A DNA stretch of 62,897 nucleotides, filler included, from Rhabdomonas costata (taxonomy: Eukaryota), in NCBI GenBank assembly GCA_019059605.1. It is 47 parts of 47 records of this genome, joined end to end, with 100 filler letters (N's around TTAATTAATTAA, not from the genome) between each part and the next. Parts side by side here need not be neighbours in the genome. Positions count along the whole stretch, not along the records: positions 33,519 to 34,757 come from JAHMHO010022294.1; 46 more parts are not named here. One strand, given 5' to 3'. Each line of letters opens with the position of its first letter. The first letter of the stretch is position 1. The notes under the pieces were generated by a model that saw only the letters and a program-made list of their open reading frames with translations, did not search any database and was not told where the DNA came from. Below are positions 13,121-35,854 of this stretch, one piece after another. The translations under genes were made by a program, and so were the position numbers.

Positions 13121-13539
13121 GCCTCTCACCGAACTTTGTACGGCTGGCTGTCGTGGTCGTCCTCAACAATGCGCCCTCTTTTCCCCGCACCGCCGTCCTT
13201 GTCATCGGGGAAGTCTAGGCCTCTGACTACAGTGTCCCCATCCTTGGGCTGCGAAAAAGAGGGACGGAGAATAGTGACAAAATCAAGACCGCGAAATAGC
13301 ACCCACCNNNNNNNNNNNNNNNNNNNNNNNNNNNNNNNNNNNNNNNNNNNNTTAATTAATTAANNNNNNNNNNNNNNNNNNNNNNNNNNNNNNNNNNNNN
13401 NNNNNNNGGTTTTTGGTTGGGACTGCCCGAGTCTCTTCCTGCCCAGCTGTGAACCATCCGGGTTTTTTCTTCCAACATGTTTATTTAACACTCCTGCGCT
13501 AGTCACTGATTGTGCTTAATTTTGCTTTGTTTCCTTCAG

Positions 13540-13774
13540 ATCCAATTGTTTTTCACGCTCGTCAGCTCAAGAGTTGGCTGGGGTTGGGCAGTGATCCTTA
13601 TGCTGCAGTGCATATTCGTCGAACCGACAAGAACGACACTGATGTCCTCCTTCCCACCGCTTTGTACTTGGACGTTTTATTGGACCATGTGCTGCGTTTC
13701 CGGCAAAATCGTGGAATTTCTATTACCAGAGTGTTTGTTATGACCGATAGCGAGGTGGTGCTGAAGGAGATCTG
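13540..13774 (+). CDS. Alpha-1,6-fucosyltransferase-like protein (GT23/FUT8 family), internal exon
   Basis: AG/GT-bounded exon with motif I AVHIRRTDK and motif II RVFVMTDSEVVLKE. Confidence 0.8.
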
Positions 13775-13851
13775 GTCCGTAGTTTTCTCTTGTTTGGAAA
13801 AAGTTGTGAAACTCACACCCGCATTTGCTCCTCACAGCTTCTTTCCGCTTG

Positions 13852-13852
<1 letters not shown>

Positions 13853-13882
<30 letters not shown>
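13853..13882. repeat. (CA)n microsatellite
   Basis: Direct reading. Confidence 0.95.
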
Positions 13883-13884
<2 letters not shown>

Positions 13885-14790
13885 TCTCTCTCCTCATACG
13901 CCACACGACCAGCAGGCGCACTTGCCTTGCCTCACGAACCTGCACTGTATGTGCGTTTTCAAACTTCTCCAAACCGAATGTGGCACCGAACCTCACGAGA
14001 CGACGAAGCCTGACCTGTTCAATCTACCTGCGCACATCTTTGCGTTGAGGAAAAGGACCAGAATCATGACGAAACCTGCCATGGTGTGCTGGGGGTGATG
14101 AGGTTTGTTGATTTCTCCCATTCACCCACAGCGACCTTGTTCAGCATAACCGGAGCCTGGGCGCACTTAGCTTTGTCTGGACTCCACATCAGCTCAGGTT
14201 GTGTCCGTGAGGCTAGCGTCCATCAGTGCCCATACTTGCTCCGTATTTGCTGCCATGCACTCTTGCGGTCCTGCCAGACGAAGCGATCTGCGTGATGCAA
14301 TTTGCCTTGGTACTTGGGATAGGCATATTCGTTATTACATTGGTTGTGGTGCACATAACCACCACACAGACCTCCCACAATGGAGCTTAGGCTATGCATG
14401 ACCTGTTCAGGTTACCCAAGTGCTGTGAGAATTTCTCTGGCAATTTTCTTGCCCTCCTAGTTTGGAAGACATACTCCCAGAAATCCTTGTCAACTGCTGT
14501 GCCGAACCTCCAGAGTTGCAAAAATTGATTCATTGCTCAAATCGGGCTTGATTTCTATTTAGCTCCACTACCCTCATTCCGCACGGTTCATTTCGTCGAT
14601 CAGACCATTTACTCAACTTCGCGTTTCCCCAGAAGTACCCCAAACCCNNNNNNNNNNNNNNNNNNNNNNNNNNNNNNNNNNNNNNNNNNNNTTAATTAAT
14701 TAANNNNNNNNNNNNNNNNNNNNNNNNNNNNNNNNNNNNNNNNNNNNGGTGTTGGGTAGCCCAAGCTATACCGCAAGCTGGAGTAGCTAC

Positions 14791-20311: not shown

Positions 20312-21309
<998 letters not shown>

Positions 21310-22258
21310 TCACATCCGCCCAAGCCGGACGCAGGGACAACACACANNNNNNNNNNNNNNNNNNNNNNNNNNNNNNNNNNNNNNNNNNNNTTAATTAATT
21401 AANNNNNNNNNNNNNNNNNNNNNNNNNNNNNNNNNNNNNNNNNNNNGGGTTTGTGTTCTTGCCTCTCCCTCTCACTACCTGGGGCAAGGAGCGAGTGGGT
21501 CCATCACAAAGTGGGGCAGTCTCTTCCTGCCGACCACCGTGAGGCTGAAAACCCACCTGTGATCCAGTGACCAAGAAGGGTAGAGTTCTGAGACCAAAAC
21601 TGCCGCGGCTGGAGACATGAAGCTTTCCGAGATAAGAGGGGAACTCCCCGCCATCGCAGAAGCACCCGTTGCCTCGGAGAACCCACCTCGAGCTGAAACC
21701 AGAAGAAATCCCAGGAGTGAAGGACGCGCACAGTAGCGCAGGCATTGCTGTTGCGACGTAGACCCTTCTCGTATTTGGCGGGAGACCAAGAAGTCGCGCG
21801 GTGATACGCAACTTAGCCTCCGTAACAGCCGACCTTCTGCCCGCCTCGTAGGCTCAGGGAGCGAAGGAGACCGGGCTTTGCCCCTCTGGCGGAGACGACA
21901 CTTGCCTGCCCGAACGGACGCCTGTGTCTCCATGAGATAAGCAGATCTCTGACCGGCCACCCAACGTCGAATTCGCAGGTACCATGTGGTACAGTTACTG
22001 TTTTCTCCGAGAACAAAGAATGAGCAACCGCACACACAGCCCCTCTGCCGAGACCTCCTCCGCCCCATGCTCCACATCCAGCAGCTCGTCGACGGTCGGT
22101 TCCGCCAGAGCCTGCTCGAAGCCCTCCCCTCCACCGCTTGAAGACACCGACTACCGCCTCCGTCACCAGCTGCGGAAACGCTCAGCTTCCGTGGCCCGTC
22201 TGGACCCTCCTCCGCCTCCCAAGCGTCCTTCCCCCTCATCCTCCAGGCCCTCGCAGTA

Positions 22259-22686
22259 AATCACCCCAGGTTGACTCGTTCCTTCACATCCTTCACAACG
22301 CGCACCTTGCCCTCCCCTCTCCCGACAGTCTCCACGGCGCTCCCTGCTTTGTGAGACCCAAGTCTCCCACCAAGGTCCGTTTCCTTGTCGATCTCCGCTC
22401 GTACAACCTCCTGTTCCCCAAACCACCTCAATTCCATCTTCCCCATTTCACCAGTCTCCGCCCTCTCGCACAGCCTCTCTACTACATGAAAATCGATCTC
22501 CAGAACTGCTTCTGGTCGATTTCTTTGCCCTCTCGCGTCCGCGGCGCCTTTAGCCTCTCCTCCACGTCCTCCGTGTACGCCTGCCGCCGCCTTCCCTTTG
22601 GCTGGTCGTGGAGCCCAGTCCTCGCCCAGACTTTTATCGCGTACATTCTGACCCCACTTCGTGCCTTCGGTACACTTGAGCACTGG
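22259..22686 (+). mobile_element. Reverse transcriptase of a DIRS-order (tyrosine-recombinase) retrotransposon, truncated by contig end
   Basis: CFVRPKSPTKVRFLVDLR..N..PKPPQFHLP...MKIDLQNCFWSI.LP...RLPFGWSWSPVLAQ, intronless. Confidence 0.8.
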
Positions 22687-24181
22687 NNNNNNNNNNNNNN
22701 NNNNNNNNNNNNNNNNNNNNNNNNNNNNNNTTAATTAATTAANNNNNNNNNNNNNNNNNNNNNNNNNNNNNNNNNNNNNNNNNNNNTTTTTGTGTTTACG
22801 TTTTGGATGCTATCAATTTCCAACGCGTCGTAAAGCGATAGCATCCAAAACGTAAACAAAAACAACGTAAACAACAACAAAAAGTAAAAAAAGTCTGGGT
22901 TCACAGCCGAAGTAAAGCCGTTTATATCTCCTGCTGTTTGCTGAAATGTCCAATCTGCTTCTTTGACGATGTCAGTTAACCGGGTCCCTTCGAACGCCTA
23001 TGATACTGTAAGAGAAATTTACATCGGTGACTGTATTAATGGACCGGTTTTTTCAGATTATTGGCACCAGTTGCAAGATTTTGGCCATGAGTGTAAGATC
23101 CTCTTGCTGAGTGTAGAGTATGAGGAAGTTTCCTTTGGGGCCGGCTTTTTTTTGCCTCACGACGGCTTCAGTTGCGTGCTTTTTTTTGGCACACTGCCAC
23201 AGCGCAAGAAAACCTTGAACTACAGCAACAGCGAATACCGAAACGCTTCCTTGAGATATGGTGTCCCGGGGAACACGAGCACAGTTCCTTACCCCTTGCA
23301 TTCCCTACAAGAGCAAATGAGTGCAGCCTGTGCCGCTGCTGCTGCTGCTGGAAGTCCATGGGTACATTTTTGTCTTGTCAGAGGCCCAACACGTCATAAT
23401 GTGAGCTTGAGCAACAACAAAGAGAGTTCGCCTCGTTTCAAGTTTCTTCTTCTGCGGTGGGTGACGCAGGGACGAACCCTCGAGAGAAGAACCCCATGCT
23501 GCTGAAGAGCTGCACCCCGAGCCCCCTTCTCTGCCAAACAGCGCGGCCTCTCAGCCAGAGTCGGGTTTGTTTATGGCCTTCGCAGCCATTATCTCGTTTC
23601 TTGACTGCTCGAAATTTCAGAGAACTTGTGTCCCCAATCAGGGACCTGCTACGCAGGTTGTTTCACAGGGGATGGTTGGAGTGGGGCCTGAGTTGCGTTA
23701 ACCCTTACGCCTCAGCAAGGCCAGCATGTTAGACCTTGAATATGGATTCGAGCCGATTTCGGTAAGTACCCGTGCCAGTGTTTTACCCTTCACAGTCAGC
23801 TCAGTGTGTGTTTGTCTTCCCGCGGATGGTGGTGTGGTGGTTGCCTGGCTCCCTTTTTTGACGCTCACCGACAACGAATTGTAGGGTTCTTCTCTTCCCC
23901 CAGTTCCGTTGCACGGATTGAACGGAACTCTGGACATTGCTGCATTCCCAAAGTGCACCTTTATGCAAAAAAAATTTTTGTAGGGTGCTTCCCAAACATC
24001 TCGGAATGGCTGCTTCGGGAACCCACNNNNNNNNNNNNNNNNNNNNNNNNNNNNNNNNNNNNNNNNNNNNTTAATTAATTAANNNNNNNNNNNNNNNNNN
24101 NNNNNNNNNNNNNNNNNNNNNNNNNNTTTGGGTACCTGGCGAGCGCACCCTGTCCTCAAAGCCACTGAATTCGCAACACCA

Positions 24182-32416: not shown

Positions 32417-32984
32417 GCTCGCGTTGGAGGCTTCAACTACATAAAGGCGAGATTCCCGCGGAGCCAGCCTGTGGCGGTGGAGGACCCGAGCTCTCCGATG
32501 AACGCAATGCGCTCGAGGGTGCGCTGTTTGCTAACGTTTCGATGTAAATCTCTCCTTGGACGGCACTCACAGAAAGGTTTTTGATTGACAGTTTACCTCT
32601 ACCGCAATGAAGCTGAACAAGGTAGATTGGGGGCATGATTTTATTCGAAACTGTTCGGAAAAATCGGATTTTATTTAAATCAAGGGTTTGCTCTGGACCT
32701 GCTTTTATGTTTCTGCGTCCTCCTGTGTTCTCCTGAGTTTCTGTTATTTTACTGGTTTTAAAAGAGAATGAAAGATTCAGACTGAGTGCCCCCCCTTGTG
32801 ATGGGTATTGTGGTGGATGCAGATTACCGTGGCGATGTTGGGAGGTTCGGTGCGGCTGTTCACCTCCGCGATTGCGGCGTGCCTGGAGGACACCACTAGC
32901 CCGGCCTACCGGCGCTCCGCGCTGGACTGCCTGTTCACTACGTTCCGTCTCCACGAGCGGGGTTGCCTGGGCGAGCCTGACAAG
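32417..32984 (+). CDS. Two exons of an unknown, probably helical protein
   Basis: Exons 32417-32518 and 32823-~32984 join in phase 0; GC3-rich; second donor uncertain. Confidence 0.55.
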
Positions 32985-33944
32985 GCACCTGTCCCCTCTC
33001 TCCTTGCTCCCTTCCACCATTCCCTACTTCATTTGTTGACCTGCAATCCTGTTACCAGGGTCCGTCTCTGCATGTGAGACCTCCTCCGAGAGCTGCATTT
33101 GGATTTACTACAACATTTCTGTTTCTGGTTGATGGAAGGAGAGATGGTTGCCCTTAGGGGGGCGTCCGCTGGGTTCTCTGGGAACTCGTGAACTTGTGAG
33201 ACCATGAATCTTTGGGTACCAGACTACTTTCATTGGGTTCAACGAGCTCTTTTCTGTGGCTAGTTGTCGGGCGGTCTGTACAATGGAAAATGAACGCGCG
33301 TCCTTTTTTCAGAGCGTTGCGTCCCGCTTACTGGGTCATAGGCCATCCTCGGTTTCCCTATTACATGGAGGAGTTCGATGAGGAACACTCGTTTCTCACT
33401 CACTCCGTGTAGGTTCTCNNNNNNNNNNNNNNNNNNNNNNNNNNNNNNNNNNNNNNNNNNNNTTAATTAATTAANNNNNNNNNNNNNNNNNNNNNNNNNN
33501 NNNNNNNNNNNNNNNNNNGGTGTTGGGGGGAGGGTTGCTTGGAGGTGGTATCCTACAGACAGGGGCGCTGATTCTCAAATTTTGCTGCCATCTTACGGAA
33601 GCATCACTGAAGGCATTCTATGGCGAATATGCAGTGAGATCAATGTGAAAACGGACGGAGTATTTTCCCCCAGCTTCCCGACCACTCCCCTTTTCTTTGC
33701 CTTTTTTAGATCTGTTGGATTCCGAAGGCGAGAATTCCGAACCGCTTTCCAGGCGAAACCCACTGCAACTCTCGAAAGTAGAAACGCTCGCAGTTGGGAT
33801 GGTACTACCGCAGCCGAAGAGAACTCAACGTCCTTCCCGCAGCCGTTTCATATGCAAGGTCAATGCACACCACCATAATATTCCTGTGCTCGGTACACAT
33901 GTTATTGTATTATTTTTTGCCTTCCTGTTTTCTGTGCTCTGTAG

Positions 33945-34676
33945 GATCGACAGGGAACATTTATACTGGAGACCAACGGGCTGCTGCTGGGAAGCAGCCC
34001 AGAGCTGTGCGCCGCACTGGCGGCCAGCGGAGGAGATGTGGTGGTGAGGATCTGCGTCAAGGGCACTGACCCGGACTCCTTCGAGAAGGTCTGGTCGGTC
34101 GGTGTTCGATCAAGCTGCACGTGTGCTCGCGTCAAACCCCTTTTCCGCACGGCACCTCAACCCTAGTTTGCGAGTATTTGCACAATCGGAAGCAGGAGAG
34201 CGGAGTCTTTGGAGTCATGGAGGCCTTAACCAACTGCTAGGTAGTTCAGCTGACATTGGGGCAAAAACAAACACGTATTATTGTTCAACACGAGCTGGAG
34301 ATGGTGTGGTAGTGCTTCAAGTATGCTGTTGCATATATGCTGATGATCAACTCAGCCTGCTCGGTTGCCAATGTATGCTATGTCGCGTCCTGAATGTTCT
34401 CATGTCATTGCTTCTGGCGTCTGTGCGCAGGTCACGGGGGCCCATGGCACGGGGTTCTTCTTGCAGCTCACCGCCCTGCAGGAGCTGCAACGTCTCGGCG
34501 TTCGTGCCCACGCCGCGTTCATGGCGGACCTCTTCCCGCCCTCCGAGGTCGAGGACCTCGCACAGACTCTGCGTCGGGAGTGGGGCATCCACGGGGAGCT
34601 GGAGCTCGAGGGCCTGGAGAGGTACCCTCCTGTGATGGCCCACCTGAAGCAGAGACATCTGGAGATCGTTGGCTGA
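33945..34676 (+). CDS. Radical-SAM Fe-S protein of archaeal type (COG5014-like), C-terminal half; last two exons
   Basis: Exons 33945-34088 and 34431-34676 (TGA): TFILETNGLLLG...VVVRICVKGTDPDSFEK|VTGA..FFLQLTALQEL..GVRAHAAFM...ELELEGLERYPPVMAHLKQR. Confidence 0.75.
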
Positions 34677-35854
34677 GTTTCTCTGCTTTCTCTGTGTGCC
34701 AACCCATGTCTTCTCCTGCAATCATTGCATTGTTTGCCTCCTTGTACCCAACCCACANNNNNNNNNNNNNNNNNNNNNNNNNNNNNNNNNNNNNNNNNNN
34801 NTTAATTAATTAANNNNNNNNNNNNNNNNNNNNNNNNNNNNNNNNNNNNNNNNNNNNTGTGTTTCGGTGTGTTTGGTGTTTGTTTTCTCAGCTTCCACCT
34901 CGAAGGTCGCTTTCCTAAAGCGGACTTTGGATGGCTCTTCTTCTCTGAATCAGTGCTATGTTGATTTTAGACCAACCCTGTGCAGCCATTTTTCATGCGA
35001 AAAAAATGGTTACTGAAGCCCCCATCCCTTTTTGATTTCCCGCGGCTCCCACTTTGTTTCCTCACTGCTGTCGTGCTGCAGTTGACGGACTTCTTTCCCG
35101 ACCCCCTCTCTTTCTCTTTTTTTCGCTGCTTTCCCTTCGGCGTCGGGGAATGTCCACCGCCCGAGACGGAGTCCCTGCTGCTGCTGCTGCTGCTGGCGGC
35201 GGTTTCCCCGCGTTTACAGCCGCGCCGTACCCTGCCCAGGGATGGGGTTGGGCTCCGGTTATGGGTTCCCAGCCATTCCTACTTGGGTTTTTGCTAAAAG
35301 GCGTCAGGCACGTGAAAATGGGCTGTCATATGGCAATGGTTCTTCACATATGTCACTGGCCATATTTGGAGGACCTTTTGCTTTTCTAATGAAATCATCG
35401 ATGTGTATGGTCACTTGTCTGCACACGCAGCTTCTGGAGTTCTGGAGGGAGCGGAAGAGCGTCAATGGCCCATTTTGCCGTTGAAGCACGAAATGACGGA
35501 GGCGAGCCCGCGGGACCGGGAGCAGGAGGCTAGTAGAAGCGTGAACTTGCCTAGACGTGTTGTTCTGGTTTGGTCTGCTGATACGATTTGTTACCATTGG
35601 TAACTGTTGCCGCTTGCGTGTCTTACCGAGAGTTAGGTGGAAGGAGGATAGGGGGTGGCCGAGGCTAGTTTGGGCGCGGCTGAGCGGAAGGACACAGGTA
35701 GTGAACAGCGATTGTAACAAGCAAGACAATGCTAAAATTAAAAGGTGAGAGTCAAACCCAGGATGGAAACCCACATAAATATCGATTGAGGTTACTACAA
35801 ACCGCTCACGGGCCTGACGCCATCTTCGCTTAACCTGAGCTTCTGCCGTATGGG

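What the first reader, a model, noticed from the sequence alone, without database searches (positions are those of the whole stretch)
33945..34676. Archaeal-type radical-SAM gene carrying spliceosomal introns: candidate prokaryote-to-protist transfer
Seen: two exons joined by a phase-0 GT-AG intron, with host-like codon usage, encoding FILETNGLLLG...VRICVKGTDPDSFEKVTGA...FFLQLTAL..L...GV..H.A.M...ELELE.L..YP.V...L. Knowledge (recalled, not searched): this matches the uncharacterised, mainly archaeal Fe-S oxidoreductase family COG5014 (FILETNG, VRVSLKG...F...TGA, final LYP.V..RL). Introns exclude prokaryotic contamination. Inference: horizontally acquired oxygen-sensitive enzyme of unknown function; strongest lead for new biochemistry in this window. 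The CxxxCxxC motif lies outside the contig.
Basis: partly seen in the sequence, partly recalled or inferred. Interest (0 to 1): 0.72.

Follow-up and report, generated by a model that had tools for sequence, protein, structure and literature searches.

The report
Intron-split radical SAM gene fragment
A short contig from a Euglena-like protist carries the last two exons of a gene for an uncharacterised iron-sulfur (radical SAM) enzyme whose relatives are almost all bacterial or archaeal, so it is a real but fairly ordinary case of a gene of prokaryotic type settled in a protist nucleus.

Summary
On a 1,239-bp contig (33519-34757), exon A (33945-34088, 48 aa) and exon B (34431-34673, 81 aa, plus TGA) are split by a 342-nt phase-0 GT-AG intron. 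They align without a gap to residues 195-242 and 243-321 of a 322-aa Euglena gracilis transcript protein (72% identity). That protein has the CxxxCxxC motif and matches Pfam Radical_SAM.

The family is a ~245-aa stand-alone radical SAM enzyme with no curated subfamily and no solved relative by sequence. Its closest fold is pyruvate formate-lyase activase.

"Archaeal-type" is not shown. All 8 organism-named proteins among the 120 listed hits are bacterial, though the wider family includes archaea.

The gene is not private to this organism. Window, E. gracilis and a split gene on an unnamed 2.27-Mb contig form one clade (support 99-100). Paratrimastix also has a copy, and a single eukaryotic clade is not rejected (p-AU 0.49).

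Function is unknown. The best lead is an archaemetzincin peptidase gene adjacent in 12 of 78 close bacterial loci. The Fe-S motif and the N-terminal exons are not in the window. No RNA data or whole genome could be consulted.

The parts
33519..33944 (+). Non-coding stretch upstream of exon A. It is most likely the 3' part of a further intron, ending in a pyrimidine-rich tract and AG at 33943-33944.
   Evidence: None of the three frames resembles residues 1-194 of the homologue. GC is 0.49. An in-frame TAG at 33942-33944 closes the frame directly before exon A.
33945..34088 (+). Exon A, 48 aa. It carries the FILETNG ribose-binding motif and the VRICVKG strand of the radical SAM core.
   Evidence: It aligns to P0001 residues 195-242 with 35 of 48 identical, E 5e-16. 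GC is 0.62 and GC3 0.73.
34089..34430 (+). Phase-0 GT-AG intron, 342 nt.
   Evidence: It starts GTCTGG and ends GCGCAG, has in-frame stops and 0.51 GC. Removing it gives a gap-free alignment across K|V to the E. gracilis transcript protein. The same junction is uninterrupted in P0194.
34431..34673 (+). Exon B, 81 aa. This is the C-terminal part of the barrel and includes the family-specific ELELE...YPPV motif.
   Evidence: It aligns to P0001 residues 243-321 with 57 of 79 identical, E 6e-40. GC3 is 0.84.
34674..34676 (+). TGA stop codon.
   Evidence: The protein ends within two residues of the end of the E. gracilis homologue.
34677..34757 (+). Start of the 3' untranslated region, running to the contig end.
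   Evidence: Pyrimidine-rich, 0.48 GC, no coding similarity.

Best explanation
The contig holds the last two exons of a nuclear gene of a Euglena-like protist. The gene encodes a small stand-alone radical SAM enzyme of a family otherwise found almost only in anaerobic bacteria and archaea.

Gene structure and origin. The gene has acquired conventional GT-AG introns and host-like GC3. It was already present in the common ancestor shared with the Euglena gracilis lineage. It is therefore an established gene of prokaryotic type, not a recent insertion or a contaminant.

Chemistry, inferred by homology and not seen in the window. The full protein binds a [4Fe-4S] cluster through CxxxCxxC. It binds S-adenosylmethionine through the GxEP and ETNG motifs. 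It cleaves SAM reductively to a 5'-deoxyadenosyl radical, which abstracts a hydrogen atom from its substrate.

Substrate. This is unknown. My best guess, at about 25%, is a protein or peptide handled together with an archaemetzincin-type zinc peptidase. The grounds are the compact PflA-like open barrel and the gene neighbourhood in the closest bacterial relatives.

The E. gracilis protein has a 74-residue disordered N-terminal extension with no glutamate and 7 Arg+Lys. That could be a targeting sequence, but this is inference only.
For: Structure and homology:
- The junction is confirmed by a gap-free alignment to P0001, a transcript-derived E. gracilis protein.
- P0001 matches Pfam Radical_SAM at 9.9e-12 over residues 120-277. 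Its cluster cysteines are C122, C126 and C129.
- All 9 conserved family columns within the fragment are kept.

Distribution:
- One search found 1,055 hits, of which the best 120 are listed. Of those 120, 119 are prokaryote-like proteins of about 245 aa at 46-56% identity, and one is P0001 itself.
- One search found 432 cluster representatives at E<=1e-3.
- The family is patchy in bacteria: 7 of 201 and 27 of 301 genomes in two phyla.

Phylogeny:
- Window, E. gracilis and the 2.27-Mb-contig gene form a clade with SH-aLRT 100 (97 rows) and 99 (41 rows).
- That clade sits in or next to a group containing Aminicenantes, Omnitrophota and Clostridiales proteins.

Fold:
- The AlphaFold2 model has a core pLDDT above 94.
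- PflA (3c8f) is the top match in both searches: Foldseek E 2.6e-7, and VIA-align Z 18.8, rmsd 2.8 over 206 residues.
- The next match is NifB at Z 15.4.

Partner lead:
- An archaemetzincin gene (PDB 2x7m, E 7.5e-33) lies next to the gene in 12 of 78 metagenome loci.
- In 11 of those it is on the same strand with gaps of -29 to 49 bp, sometimes upstream and sometimes downstream.
- It is also nearby in 1 of 25 genome loci.
- Genomes with the radical SAM gene carry PF07998 in 18 of 27 cases, against 90 of 274 without it. Fisher odds ratio 4.1, p 0.0012.
- In a second phylum the figures are 4 of 7 against 60 of 194.
Against: - The Fe-S motif, the GxEP motif and the start of the gene are not in the window, so an intact gene is not shown.
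- The two exon peptides on their own hit no Pfam or NCBIfam model, even at E up to 10.
- No RNA evidence could be obtained.
- The organism is not identified. Two exons tested had no identical E. gracilis protein.
- The eukaryotic nature of the 2.27-Mb contig is inferred only from a split open frame and contig size.
- Most near neighbours in the tree are unnamed metagenome proteins, so the donor lineage is open.
- The archaemetzincin link is absent from 66 of 78 metagenome loci and 24 of 25 genome loci. The co-occurrence test is not corrected for shared ancestry.
- Other neighbours point elsewhere. LexA is near the gene in 3 of 25 loci and PolX in 2 of 25.
- Single fusions with DUF413 and with TIR also exist.
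Confidence: 0.8

Rival explanations
1. The gene is an old eukaryotic gene, or one passed between eukaryotes, rather than an independent prokaryote-to-euglenid transfer. Euglenids, Paratrimastix and the unnamed 2.27-Mb-contig organism would then share one acquisition.
For: Paratrimastix pyriformis has a 396-aa homologue at 46% identity, also with a long N-terminal extension. An AU test does not reject a single clade of all four eukaryotic rows (delta lnL 0.61, p-AU 0.494).
Against: In both free trees Paratrimastix sits apart from the euglenid-like trio, next to unnamed prokaryote-like rows, though with weak support. Only one EukProt protein appeared among the 120 hits listed. Failing to reject a clade does not show one.
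Confidence: 0.25
2. The donor was an archaeon.
For: Two of the three nearest ESM-Atlas clusters by features are 74% and 80% archaeal, with Thermoproteota commonest. A 2008 paper lists COG5014 among signature genes that Thermotoga maritima shares with Archaea (PMC2464742, passage read). A Methanotrichaceae member exists.
Against: All 8 organism-named proteins among the 120 listed hits are bacterial, and so are all 5 genome loci. The named archaeal protein lies in a different subgroup from the euglenid clade. Atlas taxa rest on few members and give no alignment.
Confidence: 0.15
3. The enzyme acts on a nucleotide or on nucleic acid, in repair, modification or defence, and not on a protein.
For: - LexA lies within 1-3 genes in 3 of 25 bacterial genome loci, in three different arrangements, once together with a DnaE2-like polymerase.
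- PolX lies directly upstream in 2 of 25 loci, once with a UvrA-like gene.
- Single fusions exist with DUF413 and with DUF4062+TIR_2.
- The weak best NCBIfam similarities are to MoaA.
- Viperin (Z 14.5) and QueE (Z 14.3) are among the top fold matches.
Against: The repair link did not recur. Among 78 metagenome loci with 527 neighbouring ORFs there was no LexA, no DnaE2, no UvrA and only 2 short PolX-like fragments. All NCBIfam scores are far below their cut-offs. PflA is a clearly better fold match than the nucleotide-directed enzymes.
Confidence: 0.25
4. The window copy is a decaying paralogue or pseudogene fragment rather than a working gene.
For: Only the C-terminal 129 codons are visible. 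No identical transcript protein was found. At 72% identity to the E. gracilis transcript, it could be a diverged second copy.
Against: Both exons are open and the stop is at the homologous position. Splice signals are intact. All 9 conserved columns are kept, and GC3 is high as in another coding exon.
Confidence: 0.1
5. The contig is prokaryotic contamination or a chance open frame.
For: None beyond the prokaryotic affinity of the family.
Against: The frame is interrupted by 342 nt with in-frame stops and GT-AG ends. The upstream part of the gene is missing behind a second AG acceptor. The nearest relative is a eukaryotic transcript at 72% identity, against 43-47% for a bacterial homologue.
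Confidence: 0.01

Closest known systems
Euglena gracilis transcript protein EG_transcript_19379 (EukProt; P0001, 322 aa)
   Same: It is 72% identical over the 128 comparable residues. Alignment is collinear across the splice junction, the C-terminus is the same and all conserved motifs are shared.
   Different: It is not identical, so the window comes from another species, strain or paralogue. The window lacks the region matching residues 1-194, which includes the N-terminal extension and CxxxCxxC. The transcript protein carries no functional name in the source.
Prokaryotic proteins of about 245 aa that JGI calls 'uncharacterized Fe-S cluster-containing radical SAM superfamily protein' (possibly COG5014; that equation is recalled, not tested)
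   Same: They are 46-56% identical to the E. gracilis protein over 96-99% of its core. They share the N-terminal YYRFR...YGGI.TAD hairpin, CxxxCxxC, GxEP, ETNG, R/K and LExE motifs.
   Different: They have no introns and no N-terminal extension. They occur in anaerobic bacteria and archaea, patchily. Their function is also unknown.
Pyruvate formate-lyase activating enzyme PflA (PDB 3c8f)
   Same: It is the best structural match: Z 18.8, rmsd 2.8 over 206 of 245 residues. It is a similarly compact partial barrel of about 245 residues with the cluster motif near the N-terminus.
   Different: Sequence identity is 16%. The TIGR02493 score is 20 bits against a cut-off of 231.75. No glycyl-radical enzyme gene was seen among the neighbours scanned. 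The family has its own N-terminal hairpin.
RaSEA, the radical SAM enzyme of archaeosine synthesis
   Same: It is a small archaeal radical SAM enzyme that works in complex with a partner protein (PMC11298593, passages read).
   Different: P0001 gave no RaSEA-named NCBIfam hit at E<=1, although PGAP uses that name (PMC7465815, table passage read). No ArcS-like neighbour was seen.
Paratrimastix pyriformis 'putative radical SAM protein' KAJ4460209.1 (P0127)
   Same: It belongs to the same family (46% identity), is eukaryotic and has an N-terminal extension.
   Different: It does not group with the euglenid-like clade in the free trees. It has a long insertion near its C-terminus.

Membership tests
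Radical SAM superfamily (Pfam PF04055) | CxxxCxxC motif that binds the [4Fe-4S] cluster | not testable with these tools
   The motif lies N-terminal of the fragment. It is absent from the window and no whole genome is held. It is present in the 72%-identical E. gracilis homologue as C122, C126 and C129, which are invariant in 74 sequences.
Radical SAM superfamily (Pfam PF04055) | Profile match above the curated cut-off | tested here: inconclusive
   The two exon peptides scanned separately gave 0 hits at E<=10. The homologue P0001 scores 45.8 bits against a cut-off of 29.5 over residues 120-277. That range covers the positions matching exon A and the first 35 residues of exon B.
Radical SAM superfamily (Pfam PF04055) | SAM-binding motifs in the C-terminal half: the ETNG ribose motif and the basic residues of the VRxxxKG strand | tested here: met
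   E203, T204, N205, G206, R229 and K233 are all present in exon A. Assigning these residues to SAM binding is from general knowledge, not from a call.
   No COG library was available. Indirect evidence only: the JGI names of homologues and a 2008 paper listing COG5014 as shared by Archaea and Thermotoga.
Glycyl-radical enzyme activases (PflA, TIGR02493) | Profile score above the cut-off | tested here: not met
   20 bits against a cut-off of 231.75 for P0001.
Glycyl-radical enzyme activases (PflA, TIGR02493) | Shared fold | tested here: met
   3c8f is the top match in Foldseek (E 2.6e-7) and in VIA-align (Z 18.8). A shared fold does not show shared function.
Conventional spliceosomal (GT-AG) intron | GT at the 5' end, AG at the 3' end, a pyrimidine-rich 3' region, and removal restores a collinear protein | tested here: met
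   The boundary can slide by up to 3 nt because GTC is repeated on both sides, but only the GT-AG choice is canonical.
Conventional spliceosomal (GT-AG) intron | Spliced RNA observed | not testable with these tools
The only transcript evidence is from a homologue in another organism.
RaSEA (archaeosine radical SAM enzyme) | Profile match | tested here: inconclusive
   No such hit at E<=1 among 19 NCBIfam families listed for P0001. I did not verify that the library holds a RaSEA model.

The most novel reading that the evidence does not exclude
This radical SAM family is the catalytic partner of archaemetzincin (peptidase M54, itself of unknown physiological role) in a conserved protein- or peptide-modifying system of anaerobic bacteria and archaea. 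Euglenids, and perhaps Paratrimastix, would have imported the radical enzyme into a eukaryotic, possibly organellar, setting. If so, the euglenid gene would give a eukaryotic handle on two orphan families at once.
Probability: 0.15. Interest if true: 0.65.

Novelty: new member of a known kind. Interest (0 to 1): 0.35.

Why it matters
Genes of prokaryotic type in euglenid nuclei are a familiar theme (general knowledge, not from a call), and a homologous transcript already sits unannotated in public data. The gene itself therefore adds one more example. It does show introns gained after acquisition, because the intron here is absent from a related gene.

The wider interest is in the family. It is a well-conserved, widespread, compact radical SAM enzyme with no known function or structure. 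It has spread into at least two distant protist lineages that tolerate low oxygen (the oxygen habit is general knowledge). The recurring adjacency to archaemetzincin is a concrete and testable lead. No paper in the searched library contains both 'archaemetzincin' and 'radical SAM'.

Tried and rejected
- RaSEA idea. Dropped because no NCBIfam hit carried that name.
- DNA-repair or SOS link. LexA and PolX neighbours in 5 of 25 genome loci did not recur in 78 metagenome loci. It is kept only as a rival.
- Class I methyltransferase as the recurrent neighbour. The 15-locus BLAST cluster was a single-linkage merger. Only 4 loci carry the methyltransferase motif, and one long ORF bridges it to the archaemetzincin family.
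- First neighbourhoods (L003, L004). The genes were unrelated between the two loci.
- Recovering the N-terminal exons. No whole genome is held. A tblastn of the window found nothing further. A metagenome scan with exon B found no relative among 597 pattern matches.
- Organism identity. Rfam gave 0 matches in the window. An adenylosuccinate-lyase exon had no identical E. gracilis protein; the best identity among the listed hits was 88% (one hit, over 92% of the exon), the full-length hits reached 87%, and every hit with an organism name is Bacteroidota.
- AU test on the 97-row tree. It did not finish in three runs and was replaced by a 41-row set.
- Complex prediction of a bacterial family member with its neighbouring archaemetzincin.
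- The search for related loci with the 74-row alignment. It failed for lack of a conserved stretch and was rerun with an 18-row alignment.
- Literature. No paper in the searched library links Euglena or Paratrimastix to this gene (listings only). For 'COG5014' a single paper was found. Supplementary files were not consulted.

Full report
**What the window is.** It is not one genomic stretch. It is 47 contigs of 1,235-1,249 bp joined by artificial N...TTAATTAATTAA...N linkers. The finding lies on the contig 33519-34757. Its neighbours in the window are therefore unrelated pieces of a very fragmented eukaryotic assembly. No whole genome is held for it.

**The observation.** A stop-to-stop listing gives an open frame from 33945 that reads DRQGTFILETNG...DSFEK and then runs into stops. 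A second frame holds VTGAHGTGFF...LEIVG and ends at TGA 34674-34676.
- Exon A (33945-34088) follows a TAG whose last two bases form an AG, after a pyrimidine-rich tract.
- The 342 nt from 34089 to 34430 begin with GT and end with AG. They contain several in-frame stops and have 51% GC. The exons have 62% and 66%, and the flanks 48-49%.
- The intron lies between codons, so it is phase 0.

**Is it real?** A search with exon B alone against longer proteins returned one hit, the EukProt protein EG_transcript_19379 of Euglena gracilis (P0001, 322 aa; E 4e-29).
- Exon A aligns to its residues 195-242 (35 of 48 identical, E 5e-16).
- Exon B aligns to residues 243-321 (57 of 79 identical, E 6e-40).
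- Nothing is missing or added at K|V. A transcript-derived homologue thus confirms the splice junction.
- Identity is 92 of 128.
- The 9 invariant or nearly invariant family columns that fall in the fragment are all kept: E203, T204, N205, G206, R229, K233, F240, E300 and E302.
- A tblastn of five homologues against the whole window found only these two exons.
- The N-terminal half, including the Fe-S motif, is therefore not in the window. The sequence upstream of 33945 is most likely intron.

**What family.**
- The exon peptides alone hit no Pfam or NCBIfam model.
- P0001 matches Pfam Radical_SAM (45.8 bits, cut-off 29.5, residues 120-277). It carries CDLLCAYC, with C122, C126 and C129 invariant in a 74-sequence alignment.
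- No NCBIfam model comes near its cut-off. The best is MoaA at 32 bits against 284.
- No solved structure is related by sequence.
- An AlphaFold2 model built on 74 sequences has a core pLDDT above 94 and a disordered N-terminus of about 70 residues.
- PflA (3c8f) is the best structural match in Foldseek (E 2.6e-7). It is also best in an all-against-representatives search (Z 18.8, rmsd 2.8, 206 residues). NifB (15.4), viperin (14.5) and QueE (14.3) follow.
- So this is a compact, PflA-sized radical SAM barrel with a family-specific N-terminal hairpin. It belongs to no characterised subfamily.

**Who else has it.**
- The core of P0001 finds 1,055 proteins. The 120 listed are P0001 itself plus 119 proteins of 234-278 aa at 46-56% identity from genomes and metagenomes.
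- The 8 of these with organism names are 6 Aminicenantes/Aminicenantales, 1 Omnitrophota and 1 Clostridiales.
- An exhaustive HMMER pass over 1.84 billion cluster representatives gives 432 hits at E<=1e-3.
- Among these are a Paratrimastix pyriformis protein (396 aa, 46%) and a Methanotrichaceae protein.
- Two further hits are partial proteins that lie on contigs of the same length, 2,275,119 bp. P0128 is an N-terminal part that runs off into unrelated sequence just before the FILETNG region. P0194 is a C-terminal part that starts at that region.
- I read P0128 and P0194 as one gene split by an intron in an unnamed eukaryote. I could not see the DNA, so this is an inference.
- P0194 is continuous across the K|V point, so the window's intron is not shared with it.
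- The five loci found in species genomes are all bacterial. One is a truncated 111-aa copy in a Deltaproteobacteria MAG.
- In two bacterial phyla the gene is patchy: 7 of 201 and 27 of 301 genomes.
- By language-model features, two of the three nearest Atlas clusters are mainly archaeal and one mainly bacterial.

**Phylogeny.**
- In a 97-row tree the window, E. gracilis and the 2.27-Mb-contig gene form a clade with SH-aLRT 100. This clade lies inside a group of 35 rows holding the Aminicenantes, Omnitrophota and Clostridiales proteins and unnamed metagenome proteins.
- In that tree Paratrimastix sits elsewhere with weak support, and the archaeal row is in another subgroup.
- A 41-row tree gives the same picture, with the trio at 99.
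- Forcing all four eukaryotic rows together costs only 0.61 log-likelihood units (p-AU 0.494). One eukaryotic origin cannot be excluded.
- Rows left out: hits shorter than 225 aa, and most of the 120 close hits.
- The prokaryote-to-eukaryote direction is inferred from the rarity of eukaryotic members and their nested position. It does not come from a rooted test.

**Which organism.** This is unknown. The gene is 72% identical to the E. gracilis transcript, not identical. A second conserved exon in the window, from adenylosuccinate lyase (20872-21060, minus strand), also found no identical E. gracilis protein. Its listed hits reach 88% identity (one hit over 92% of the exon; 87% for full-length matches), and those that carry an organism name are all Bacteroidota proteins. 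The window is therefore probably from another euglenid-like species or strain. Rfam found nothing in the window.

**Function.** Nothing in the window bears on this, so I used the bacterial relatives.
- Two first loci had unrelated neighbours.
- Among 25 genome loci, LexA lay within three genes in 3, and PolX lay directly upstream in 2.
- None of this recurred in 78 metagenome loci of the closest relatives: 0 LexA, 0 DnaE2, 0 UvrA and 2 PolX fragments among 527 neighbouring ORFs.
- In that second set the commonest neighbour is a protein of about 185-245 aa. It carries the motif HELGHxxGLxHCxxxxCVM...CxxC and matches archaemetzincin structures (2x7m, E 7.5e-33).
- That protein is adjacent in 12 of the 78 loci. 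In 11 it is on the same strand with gaps of -29 to 49 bp, either upstream or downstream. It is also nearby in 1 of the 25 genome loci. Fifty-nine of the 78 loci had ORFs on both sides.
- Genomes with the radical SAM gene carry Peptidase_M54 in 18 of 27 cases, against 90 of 274 without it. Fisher odds ratio 4.1, p 0.0012, not corrected for shared ancestry.
- In the other phylum the figures are 4 of 7 against 60 of 194.
- A second PflA-like radical SAM of about 370 aa sits directly upstream in 6 loci.
- A true AmmeMemoRadiSam enzyme (296 bits, cut-off 220) was confirmed for the ORF directly downstream in L061. Similar ORFs of about 337 aa sit directly downstream in L060 and L017.
- Single fusions with DUF413 and with DUF4062+TIR_2 exist.
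- A complex prediction of a bacterial member with its archaemetzincin was not folded by the tool, so there is no verdict.
- No paper in the library contains both 'archaemetzincin' and 'radical SAM'.

**Mechanism I commit to.** The chemistry follows from established knowledge of the superfamily and is high-confidence if the gene is intact.
- A [4Fe-4S] cluster on CxxxCxxC binds SAM.
- SAM is also held by GxEP, by ETNG and by basic residues. ETNG and the basic residues are visible in exon A.
- One-electron reduction releases a 5'-deoxyadenosyl radical, which abstracts a hydrogen atom from the substrate.
- The enzyme should be oxygen-sensitive.

The substrate is inferred only. I put about 25% on a protein or peptide linked to archaemetzincin, about 25% on a nucleotide or nucleic acid, and the rest on something else.

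**Verdict.** It overreaches on 'archaeal' and on uniqueness. This is a new member of a known kind. The family itself is an attractive orphan, and the archaemetzincin link is the one new lead.

Noticed in passing
window 1-62897: The window is a chain of 47 contigs of 1,235-1,249 bp joined by N runs around TTAATTAATTAA. Adjacency between contigs therefore carries no genomic meaning.
   Followed up: yes
window 20872-21060, minus strand: A 63-aa exon of adenylosuccinate lyase is flanked by AG and GT. Its listed hits reach 88% identity, and those with an organism name are all Bacteroidota, mostly Hymenobacter. No identical Euglena protein was listed. It may be another gene of bacterial type, or simply a very conserved segment.
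   Followed up: partly
window 22024-22734, plus strand: An open frame of 236 aa has a reverse-transcriptase-like stretch (...LPFGWSWSPVLAQ...), suggesting a retroelement fragment. This was seen in the ORF listing only, and the motif reading is recalled.
   Followed up: no
window about 32800-32870, plus strand: The reading MGIVVDADYRGDVG resembles a dUTPase motif. I read this by eye and the resemblance is recalled. It was not tested.
   Followed up: no
window 13503-14048, plus strand: An open frame contains ...AAVHIRRTDKND..., which is reminiscent of a fucosyltransferase motif. The resemblance is recalled and not tested.
   Followed up: no
L005 1110-1445: A Deltaproteobacteria MAG carries only the N-terminal 111 codons of the family, 68% identical to the Euglena protein, ending in a stop. 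It looks like a truncated copy.
   Followed up: partly
P0209 (614 aa, unnamed Logan contig): A family member is fused behind DUF4062 and a TIR_2 domain, an architecture reminiscent of bacterial defence proteins. It is a single case.
   Followed up: no
L092 491-1369: One long ORF directly upstream of the radical SAM gene combines a class I methyltransferase motif with an archaemetzincin-like C-terminal half. It could be a true fusion or two genes read as one.
   Followed up: no
L060 399-1412, L061 949-1962, L017 6822-7838: ORFs of about 337 aa sit directly downstream of the family member in 3 of 25 bacterial loci. The L061 ORF scores as an AmmeMemoRadiSam-system radical SAM enzyme (TIGR04337, 296 bits against a cut-off of 220); the L017 ORF matches Pfam Radical_SAM; the L060 ORF was not scanned.
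   Followed up: partly
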